Source of the DNA: a virus
Lineage: Duplodnaviria; Heunggongvirae; Uroviricota; Caudoviricetes
Virus record (IMG/VR): IMGVR_UViG_2609460354_000008
Coordinates: 1 to 28,488 of that record
Reading direction: 5' to 3' (one strand)
DNA: 28,488 bases
Both the position numbers and the translations under genes were made by a program. Positions within the stretch are counted from its first letter, which is position 1, and each line of letters begins with the position of its first letter. Below, one piece after another: positions 222 to 290 of the stretch. The notes under the pieces are model-generated. The model was not told the origin of the DNA, made no database searches, and saw only the letters and a list, made by a program, of their open reading frames with translations.

Positions 222-290
222 ATGGCGCTTTACACAATTGGTGAAGTGGCGTTGCTTTGTGATATTAATCCTGTCACGTTACGCGCGTGA
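222..290 (+). pseudogene. 5' fragment (22 codons then TGA) of a MerR-family HTH regulator gene, MlrA/YehV-like N-terminus ([22 protein letters not shown]); probable host gene interrupted at the prophage boundary
   Basis: ATG at 222 preceded by an AGGGTGAG RBS-like stretch; translation matches the MerR/MlrA-type N-terminal HTH, then stops where LRAWQRRYG would be expected. The match to MlrA is from memory, not a search. Confidence 0.4.

What the first reader, a model, noticed from the sequence alone, without database searches (positions are those of the whole stretch)
222..290. Probable prophage-host junction inside a MerR-family (MlrA/YehV-like) gene
The ORF at 222 has an RBS and encodes a MerR-type N-terminal HTH. 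It stops after 22 codons exactly where the conserved continuation (WQRRYG...) is expected, and the sequence beyond diverges. This suggests the prophage is integrated within the 5' part of this regulator gene, with the att core near 285-290, leaving 1-288 as host DNA. Stx1-type lambdoid prophages of E. coli O157 are known to integrate in yehV/mlrA, which affects curli regulation. The identification as mlrA is from memory and needs confirmation.
Basis: partly seen in the sequence, partly recalled or inferred. Interest (0 to 1): 0.45.

Follow-up and report, generated by a model that had tools for sequence, protein, structure and literature searches.

The report
Prophage end inside the mlrA gene
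This is the well-known attachment site where temperate phages split the E. coli curli/biofilm regulator gene mlrA (yehV), so the junction is ordinary; the only unusual point is that the phage here is a Shigella SfV-like contractile-tail phage without Shiga toxin genes.

Summary
Window 1-289 is host DNA: the btsS-mlrA intergenic region plus the first 68 nt of mlrA. It is 99-100% identical in all 5,426 complete E. coli genomes searched. Identity to intact mlrA stops at base 289. The ORF 222-290 is MlrA residues 1-22, and its TGA stop is made of two core bases and one phage base.

The att core is 20 bp, not "285-290": CCTGTCACGTTACGCGCGTG at 270-289. This is the sequence annotated as the attachment site of phage VT1-Sakai in yehV. 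It contains an inverted repeat, GTCACG/CGTGAC, around a 7-bp spacer at 279-285, which is the likely crossover region.

Bases 290-448 are the phage att arm. It carries three TGYCCCAT repeats 11 bp apart. A LexA-controlled dinI gene follows. The same junction occurs in 469 of the 5,426 complete genomes.

The prophage body is 97-98% identical to Shigella phages SfI/SfII/SfV, with an HK97-type head, a Mu-type contractile tail and a Pin-invertible tail fibre. It has no stx genes.

The integrase-side end lies outside the window and outside the source contig. Verdict: already known, low interest.

The parts
1..221 (.). Host DNA: btsS(yehU)-mlrA intergenic region with the native mlrA promoter and RBS
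   Evidence: 100% identical to L001 2001-2221, upstream of the annotated mlrA CDS; present in all 5,426 complete E. coli genomes
222..290 (+). Truncated mlrA' (yehV'): codons 1-22 of MlrA plus a junction-made TGA stop
   Evidence: the homologous feature is annotated 'truncated protein of E. coli K12 YehV' in AP000400.1; annotated as a pseudogene fragment in B19374
270..289 (.). 20-bp att core CCTGTCACGTTACGCGCGTG, identical in attB, attR, attL and attP
   Evidence: the same 20-mer occurs in intact mlrA (L001), window attR, B19374 attL (L003) and attR (L002), VT1-Sakai (annotated misc_recomb 8051..8070) and phage phi330 attP (L006); flanks differ immediately on both sides
273..291 (.). Inverted repeat GTCACG (273-278) / CGTGAC (286-291) around the 7-bp spacer TTACGCG (279-285): inferred core-type integrase sites and overlap (crossover) region
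   Evidence: read from the sequence; palindrome reported (I1); function is inferred by analogy with lambda-type tyrosine integrases
290..448 (.). Phage att arm (int-distal, 'P arm' type) of the VT1-Sakai/mlrA att family
   Evidence: identical in B19374, about 98% in VT1-Sakai and phi330; phages with other att specificities match only from 449 onward
404..433 (+). Three direct TGYCCCAT repeats at 404, 415 and 426 (11-bp spacing): candidate arm-type integrase binding sites
   Evidence: these are the only three occurrences in the whole 28.5-kb window on either strand. Two more copies lie in the int-side arm of B19374 at -72 and -61 from the core. The cognate integrase in relatives has an Arm-DNA-bind_2 domain. 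Binding is inferred
308..392 (+). Three TCGACGAA(N)TCG repeats (308, 370, 380): candidate accessory-protein sites, function unknown
449..499 (+). dinI promoter (TTGACA, 18 nt, AAAAAT at 449-478) and LexA box CTGT-N8-ACAG (484-499)
   Evidence: homologous positions are annotated 'putative promoter' and 'putative SOS box' in AP000400.1
515..763 (+). Prophage dinI-like gene (82 aa)
   Evidence: Pfam DinI E = 1.1e-18
867..1421 (-). Pin/Gin-type serine DNA invertase (184 aa)
   Evidence: Pfam Resolvase 1.3e-51 plus HTH_7; annotated pinE in relatives
1483..3433 (.). Invertible tail-fibre segment bounded by 20-nt inverted repeats (1483-1502 / 3414-3433), holding two alternative fibre C-termini and two tail-fibre assembly genes
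   Evidence: I1, 95% complementary; ORF layout; Pfam Collar and Gp53-like_C; Caudo_TAP
2962..28488 (-). Body of the prophage. Tail: Mu-type baseplate and tail, sheath 11381-12877, tape measure 8779-10614. Head and packaging: HK97-type capsid 15061-16266, portal, TerL 18344-20077, HNH. Lysis: holin and lysozyme. Early region: Q 23371-24060, RusA, NinB, HEPN pair, Bro/P22-type antirepressor, Arc-like repressors. No stx genes
   Evidence: 97-98% identity over 82% of 3000-24000 to Shigella phages SfII/SfI, and 64-70% coverage for SfIV/SfV

Best explanation
Positions 222-290 are the integrase-distal junction (attR in lambda terms, the 'yehV right junction' of the O157 literature) of a temperate prophage. 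The phage entered the E. coli chromosome by tyrosine-integrase site-specific recombination at a 20-bp core (window 270-289) lying in codons 17-23 of mlrA/yehV.

Shown here:
- The host flank, the exact end of homology and the 20-bp core shared by attB, attL, attR and attP.
- A phage arm identical to that of other mlrA prophages.
- A truncated 22-codon mlrA' whose stop codon is created by the junction.

Inferred:
- Strand exchange happens in the 7-bp spacer 279-285, between the inverted core-type sites GTCACG and CGTGAC.
- The integrase's N-terminal arm-binding domain recognises the TGYCCCAT repeats at 404-433, with two more in the int-side arm.
- The other junction, not in the window, carries xis-int next to the mlrA 3' part.
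- The split gene gives no functional MlrA, so csgD, curli and biofilm expression is lost unless the prophage excises. This has been published for O157:H7 and some non-O157 STEC.

The phage itself is a mosaic. It joins the VT1-Sakai-type att arm and dinI to an SfV/SfII-like late region (HK97-type head, Mu-type contractile tail, Pin-invertible tail fibre) and a lambdoid Q/nin region. It has no Shiga toxin genes.
For: Host flank and breakpoint. The core is identical in attB, attR, attL and attP. It is annotated as the attachment site in AP000400.1, next to a truncated yehV'. In the complete genome B19374, whose attR side is identical to window 1-968, a prophage of about 52 kb ends at xis-int directly beside the mlrA 3' part. 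The same junction occurs in 469 of 5,426 complete genomes, including many O157:H7. The related integrase has Arm-DNA-bind_2 and Phage_integrase domains. The arm repeats are unique to the arm. At attL the mlrA frame is open for only 11 phage-supplied codons and has no ATG/GTG/TTG. The MerR HTH spans residues 4-72. Published phenotype: 53/55 O157:H7 strains carry a prophage in proximal mlrA, lack mlrA expression, curli and biofilm, and are complemented by mlrA in trans (PMC3874044). [quoted passage not shown] Phage body.
Against: The int-side end of this particular prophage is not in the window or on its contig. Its integrase, attL and completeness are therefore unverified. The source is a short-read draft assembly, and an independent Logan assembly breaks at window base 777, showing that the dinI region is repeated in that genome. 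No complete E. coli genome has window 1-1600 contiguous. Integrase binding sites, the crossover position and the curli phenotype are inferred, not tested for this strain.
Confidence: 0.93

Rival explanations
1. Assembly artefact: the contig wrongly joins a genuine mlrA-attR-dinI end, belonging to a lambdoid prophage of that strain, to an SfV-like prophage located elsewhere, through the repeated dinI/pin sequence. The junction in mlrA would still be real, but the SfV-like phage would not sit in mlrA.
For: The source is a draft contig. The Logan assembly of SRR1186774 stops at window 777, at the edge of the dinI repeat. Window 449-995 is shared with many prophages. No complete genome has 1-1600 contiguous. 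SfV-like bodies usually sit at other loci.
Against: The complete genome B19374 is 100% identical to window 1-968. That span runs about 100 nt into the 3' end of pin, so pin next to dinI at the mlrA attR is independently attested, as a truncated remnant there. The dinI-pin-tail-fibre order is also found in other myovirus prophages. The NCBI contig was seen in 2 samples.
Confidence: 0.08
2. The insertion is phenotypically silent because the phage supplies a replacement 5' end at the other junction. Many phages that integrate into tRNA genes, dusA or icd do this, and mlrA would then remain functional.
For: At attL in B19374 the phage sequence stays in frame (…[23 protein letters not shown]…). NCBI's pipeline even annotates a 233-aa 'HTH-type transcriptional regulator MlrA' there.
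Against: The in-frame phage stretch is only 11 codons after a stop and has no ATG/GTG/TTG; the annotated start is ATT. It is unrelated to MlrA residues 1-16, which form the first part of the MerR HTH (residues 4-72), and it lies directly after the int gene without the mlrA promoter. Published work shows loss of mlrA expression and rescue by mlrA in trans in strains with this insertion (PMC3874044).
Confidence: 0.04
3. The element is a decayed cryptic remnant that can no longer excise. The mlrA disruption would then be a fixed mutation rather than a prophage state.
For: Many mlrA prophages of O157 are defective or truncated (own knowledge; Shaikh and Tarr 2003, not read here). The int end is unseen. 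B19374's relative carries IS66 and pseudogenes.
Against: Within the 28 kb seen, all structural, lysis and late-regulation genes are intact full-length ORFs with strong Pfam matches and no IS. The arm and core are intact.
Confidence: 0.3

Closest known systems
VT1-Sakai (Sp15) / CP-933V / YYZ-2008 / phi330-type prophages integrated in yehV (mlrA) of E. coli O157:H7 and other STEC
   Same: Same host gene and the same 20-bp core. Same truncated yehV' of 22 codons. Same att arm and SOS-regulated dinI (98-99% identity over window 255-780). The consequence for mlrA is the same.
   Different: Those are lambda-like siphoviruses, many carrying stx1, whose homology to the window ends at about 860-875. 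The window continues into pin and an SfV-like myovirus late region and has no stx.
Shigella flexneri serotype-converting phages SfI, SfII, SfIV and SfV (and E. coli vB_EcoM-689R6)
   Same: 97-98% nucleotide identity over 64-89% of window 3000-24000: terminase, portal, HK97-type capsid, Mu-type sheath, tube, baseplate and DNA-circularisation protein.
   Different: By my own knowledge, the Sf phages integrate at tRNA-thrW and carry gtr O-antigen modification genes next to attP. Here the att-proximal cargo is pin plus dinI, no gtr ORFs lie between the tail fibres and att, and the site is mlrA.
Mu G segment / P1 C segment / e14 P segment (Gin/Cin/Pin invertible tail-fibre cassettes)
   Same: A serine invertase lies next to a roughly 1.95-kb segment bounded by 20-nt inverted repeats. 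One repeat lies inside the fibre gene, and two alternative C-termini with their assembly chaperones face each other.
   Different: This cassette is not part of the junction itself and is only adjacent to it. Inversion was not tested.
yecE-integrating Stx phages (e.g. Stx2_EH2201, LC567829)
   Same: The att arm is identical from window 288 onward, and the core is related (14 of 20 positions).
   Different: Different core and target gene (21-bp att in yecE/PPompW; PMC8112680).

Membership tests
Prophage integration at the mlrA/yehV att site (VT1-Sakai type) | Host flank is btsS(yehU)-mlrA 5' end | tested here: met
   Window 1-289 is 100% identical to K-12-type btsS-mlrA; all 5,426 genomes match
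Prophage integration at the mlrA/yehV att site (VT1-Sakai type) | Homology to intact mlrA ends at the 20-bp core CCTGTCACGTTACGCGCGTG | tested here: met
   Core at 270-289; annotated att site in AP000400.1; also present in attL and attP of relatives
Prophage integration at the mlrA/yehV att site (VT1-Sakai type) | Phage-side arm homologous to the attP arm of known mlrA phages | tested here: met
   290-859 is 98% identical to VT1-Sakai and phi330; 290-968 is 100% identical to B19374
Prophage integration at the mlrA/yehV att site (VT1-Sakai type) | Second junction with duplicated core, mlrA 3' part and cognate tyrosine integrase/excisionase | not testable with these tools
   Outside the window; the source contig ends 115 bp after the window. 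Seen only in a relative, B19374
Stx1-converting lambdoid phage | stx1A/stx1B between antiterminator Q and the lysis genes | tested here: not met
   Between Q (23371-24060) and holin/lysozyme (21604-22480) there is only one 165-aa ORF with no significant family match
Stx1-converting lambdoid phage | Lambda-like non-contractile tail module | tested here: not met
   Tail sheath, Mu GpP/gp44 baseplate, Baseplate_J and DNA_circ_N are present instead
SfV-like Shigella serotype-converting phages | HK97-type head plus Mu-type contractile tail late region with high nucleotide identity | tested here: met
   97-98% identity over 82% (SfI, SfII) and 64-70% (SfIV, SfV) of 3000-24000; Pfam
SfV-like Shigella serotype-converting phages | gtr O-antigen modification genes beside attP and integration at tRNA-thrW (own knowledge) | tested here: not met
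   Between the tail fibres and att lie only pin and dinI, and the site is mlrA
MerR-family regulator MlrA | N-terminal MerR HTH followed by MlrA helical and C-terminal domains | tested here: not met
   Only residues 1-22 remain (22/22 identical to MlrA). MerR hit E = 9.6e-4, 19.4 bits against a cut-off of 28.2. Intact MlrA has MerR_1 at 4-72, MlrA_helical and MlrA_C. This is a gene fragment, not a member protein

The most novel reading that the evidence does not exclude
A functional SfV-like myovirus has acquired the VT1-Sakai-type mlrA integration module. This combination is absent from 5,426 complete E. coli genomes. In a non-STEC background it could act as a reversible, SOS-linked switch on MlrA-dependent curli and biofilm expression: excision restores mlrA and re-integration silences it. 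The junction-made hairpin plus T-run (272-302) could also insulate the prophage from the stationary-phase mlrA promoter.
Probability: 0.1. Interest if true: 0.4.

Novelty: already known. Interest (0 to 1): 0.12.

Why it matters
Prophage occupation of mlrA is an established cause of curli- and biofilm-negative phenotypes in E. coli O157:H7 and some other STEC, and it is used as a typing marker (the yehV junction PCRs). This window adds little.

- A non-Stx, SfV-like contractile-tail phage can also occupy the site. mlrA occupancy therefore cannot be read as a proxy for an Stx1 phage. The phage-side primer E of the published junction PCR set has no match in the window.
- NCBI's pipeline may still annotate a 233-aa 'MlrA' at the other junction, which can hide the disruption in gene presence/absence screens.

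No open question becomes testable through this finding.

Tried and rejected
1. I looked for a complete E. coli genome with the whole arrangement. Queries 1-25000, 1-3000 and 1-1600 found none. Matches either stop at 874-995 (mlrA lambdoid prophages) or start at 449-840 (SfV-like prophages at other loci).
3. An exact-protein look-up of Pin found the source contig (GCA_000703745.1, JNPG01000043.1). It showed that the contig ends 115 bp beyond the window, so the other end cannot be reached.
4. A look-up of the Arc-like protein (27743-28090) gave only related lambdoid early regions on short contigs, with no int end for this phage.
5. I ran no further search on the integrase. The result could not be restricted to the source assembly and would not change the verdict.
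6. I rejected the idea that 290-448 is specific to mlrA phages. yecE-type Stx phages share it from base 288.
7. Shaikh and Tarr primer A matches window 244-263, but the phage-side primer E has no match in the window. It was also not found in the 3.5-kb VT1-Sakai excerpt, so I draw no firm conclusion from it.
8. The CX21-type prophage (int-dinI-pin at dusA) has a different att organisation and does not inform this site.

Full report
OBSERVATION

The ORF at 222..290 is real and encodes [22 protein letters not shown] followed by TGA. Intact MlrA of a K-12-type strain begins [33 protein letters not shown]…. The ORF therefore stops exactly where Trp23 should be.

A megablast of window 1-600 hit all 5,426 complete E. 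coli genomes. In genomes with an intact gene the match is 1-289 (99-100% identity, E = 2e-148) and lies on the annotated 'mlrA: HTH-type transcriptional regulator MlrA', downstream of btsS (yehU). Pairwise alignment shows identity up to base 289 and none beyond: the window reads …GCGCGTG|ACGCAAC and intact mlrA reads …GCGCGTG|GCAGAGG. The stop codon TGA (288-290) is made of two host/core bases and the first phage-specific base. Intact MlrA has MerR_1 at residues 4-72, then the MlrA helical and C-terminal domains. The 22-residue fragment keeps only a sub-threshold MerR hit.

WHAT THE JUNCTION IS

In 469 of the 5,426 complete genomes a single match covers at least 80% of window 1-600, so it crosses the break. 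Many of these are O157:H7 strains, which match window 1-874 at 97.5%.

In strain B19374, a complete genome, the sequence is 100% identical to window 1-968. There it bounds a prophage of about 52 kb. The other end of that prophage carries an excisionase and a 428-aa tyrosine integrase directly next to the 3' part of mlrA.

I compared four sequences: intact mlrA (attB), the window (attR), B19374 attL, and the int-att-dinI region of phage vB_EcoS_phi330 (attP). They share one common 20-mer, CCTGTCACGTTACGCGCGTG, at window 270-289, and the flanks diverge immediately on both sides. GenBank AP000400.1 (prophage VT1-Sakai of O157:H7 Sakai) annotates the homologous 20 bp as 'attachment site of Enterobacteria phage VT1-Sakai' and the preceding ORF as 'truncated protein of E. 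coli K12 YehV'.

ANATOMY AND LIKELY MECHANISM

Core. Inside the core, GTCACG (273-278) and CGTGAC (286-291) form an inverted repeat around a 7-bp spacer, TTACGCG (279-285) (sequence; palindrome). In intact mlrA the right half-site is CGTGGC. This is the layout expected for core-type binding sites flanking the overlap region of a lambda-type tyrosine integrase. I infer that strand exchange takes place at 279-285.

Phage arm. The arm at 290-448 holds three direct TGYCCCAT repeats at 404, 415 and 426, one helical turn apart. These are the only occurrences of the motif in the entire window on either strand. Two more copies sit at -72 and -61 in the int-side arm of B19374. The integrase of that relative has an Arm-DNA-bind_2 domain plus the catalytic Phage_integrase domain. 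I therefore read the repeats as arm-type sites; this is an inference. Three TCGACGAA repeats (308, 370, 380) may bind accessory factors, but their function is unknown. In lambda nomenclature this is attR (P-O-B'), the int-distal junction.

dinI. Downstream lie a sigma-70-like promoter (449-478) and a LexA box, CTGT-N8-ACAG (484-499), in front of dinI (515-763). The same features are annotated in the VT1-Sakai record.

CONSEQUENCE FOR THE HOST GENE

The 5' fragment can give only a 22-residue peptide. At attL of the relative, the mlrA reading frame is open for just 11 phage-supplied codons ([11 protein letters not shown]) after a stop and has no ATG, GTG or TTG. It follows the int gene directly and has no mlrA promoter. 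NCBI's pipeline nevertheless annotates a 233-aa 'MlrA' there with an ATT start.

[quoted passage not shown] Those strains lose mlrA expression, curli and biofilm, and some non-O157 STEC are rescued by mlrA in trans (PMC3874044). [quoted passage not shown] For the strain behind this window the phenotype is inferred, not shown.

WHAT THE PROPHAGE IS

After dinI come the following:
- a Pin-type serine invertase (867-1421, minus strand);
- a 1.95-kb tail-fibre segment bounded by 20-nt inverted repeats (1483-1502 / 3414-3433), with two opposed fibre C-termini and assembly chaperones;
- Mu-type baseplate proteins, a DNA-circularisation protein, a tape measure and a tail sheath;
- an HK97-type capsid, portal, terminase and an HNH endonuclease;
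- holin and lysozyme;
- antiterminator Q, RusA and NinB;
- a HEPN-containing gene pair, a Bro-N/P22-type antirepressor and Arc-like repressors.

Only a 165-aa ORF without a family match lies between Q and the lysis genes, so stx genes are absent. Window 3000-24000 is 97-98% identical over 82% of its length to Shigella phages SfII and SfI, and over 64-70% to SfIV and SfV.

No complete E. coli genome carries window 1-1600 or 1-3000 contiguously. SfV-like bodies sit at other loci in those genomes. The element is thus a mosaic: a VT1-Sakai-type att arm plus dinI joined to an SfV-like late region.

IS THE MOSAIC REAL?

The window is 100% identical to NCBI draft contig JNPG01000043.1 of GCA_000703745.1, which ends 115 bp after the window end (coordinates derived). 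An independent Logan assembly breaks at window 777, so the dinI region is a repeat in that genome. A mis-join is conceivable.

Against a mis-join, the complete genome B19374 is identical through base 968. That is about 100 nt into the 3' end of pin, which is annotated there as a truncated HTH pseudogene. A pin gene beside dinI at the mlrA attR is therefore independently attested. I give the chimera reading about 8%.

COMPARISON WITH WHAT IS KNOWN, AND VERDICT

The junction, core, arm and truncated gene are the same as in the published yehV/mlrA prophages of O157:H7 (VT1-Sakai/Sp15, YYZ-2008, phi330). The feature is already known. The int-side junction could not be tested for this element. The features that define 'Stx1-converting lambdoid phage' (stx genes and a lambda-like tail) were tested and not met. 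Those of the SfV group are met for the structural module but not for the gtr cargo or the thrW site.

The modest new information is that a non-Stx, SfV-like myovirus occupies mlrA. That combination was not seen in 5,426 complete genomes. Interest is low.

Noticed in passing
window 449-28488 versus 1-448: The prophage is a mosaic: a VT1-Sakai-type mlrA att arm plus dinI joined to an SfI/SfII/SfV-like myovirus late region. No complete E. coli genome among 5,426 has window 1-1600 contiguous.
   Followed up: partly
window 867-3717: A Pin-type invertase lies next to a 1.95-kb invertible tail-fibre segment with 20-nt inverted repeats at 1483-1502 and 3414-3433 (AAACGTTGGTTTGGGAGAAG). One repeat is inside the 251-aa fibre gene. 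Two alternative fibre C-termini and two assembly chaperones face each other.
   Followed up: partly
window 288-780; L005 (LC567829.1) 340-849: Stx2 and Stx1 phages that use the yecE/PPompW 21-bp att share the identical att arm from window base 288. Their core is related (CCCGTCACTTTAACTGCATG, 14/20 identical to the mlrA core). This suggests related integrases with a common arm-binding specificity but different core specificity.
   Followed up: partly
window 272-302: The junction creates a terminator-like hairpin (TGTCACG…CGTGACG) followed by CAACATTTTT on the + strand. It could stop read-through from the mlrA promoter into the prophage. This is a consensus match only.
   Followed up: no
L003 19905-20606 (B19374, NZ_CP142915.1): At the int-side junction NCBI's pipeline annotates a 233-aa 'HTH-type transcriptional regulator MlrA' (WP_029208472.1) with an ATT start and a phage-derived N-terminus. 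This could hide the gene disruption in presence/absence screens.
   Followed up: yes
L006 2481-2520 (phage vB_EcoS_phi330, PV189401.1): The deposited phage genome has two tandem copies of the 20-bp core between int and dinI. This is probably an artefact of joining prophage ends that each include the core.
   Followed up: no
window 25683-26479 (minus strand): A HEPN-domain protein (138 aa, Pfam E = 3e-6) overlaps a 133-aa partner with no family match, in the nin region. This is a possible toxin-antitoxin or defence cargo.
   Followed up: no
window 26779-28090: A Bro-N/P22 antirepressor-like gene (248 aa) is flanked by two Arc-like ribbon-helix-helix genes (27515-27787 minus strand, 27743-28090 plus strand). 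This resembles a P22 immI-type secondary immunity region.
   Followed up: no
L002 47042-47800 (B19374) versus window 969-1421: In B19374 pin is cut after the position equal to window 968-995 and replaced by a serine acetyltransferase and lambda-type tail-fibre genes. That lambdoid mlrA prophage appears to derive from, or to have recombined with, a pin-carrying one like the window's.
   Followed up: partly
window 259-399 (+): The gene caller used for the source contig called a 46-aa gene spanning the host-phage junction (L007 4023-4163). It is almost certainly spurious.
   Followed up: no
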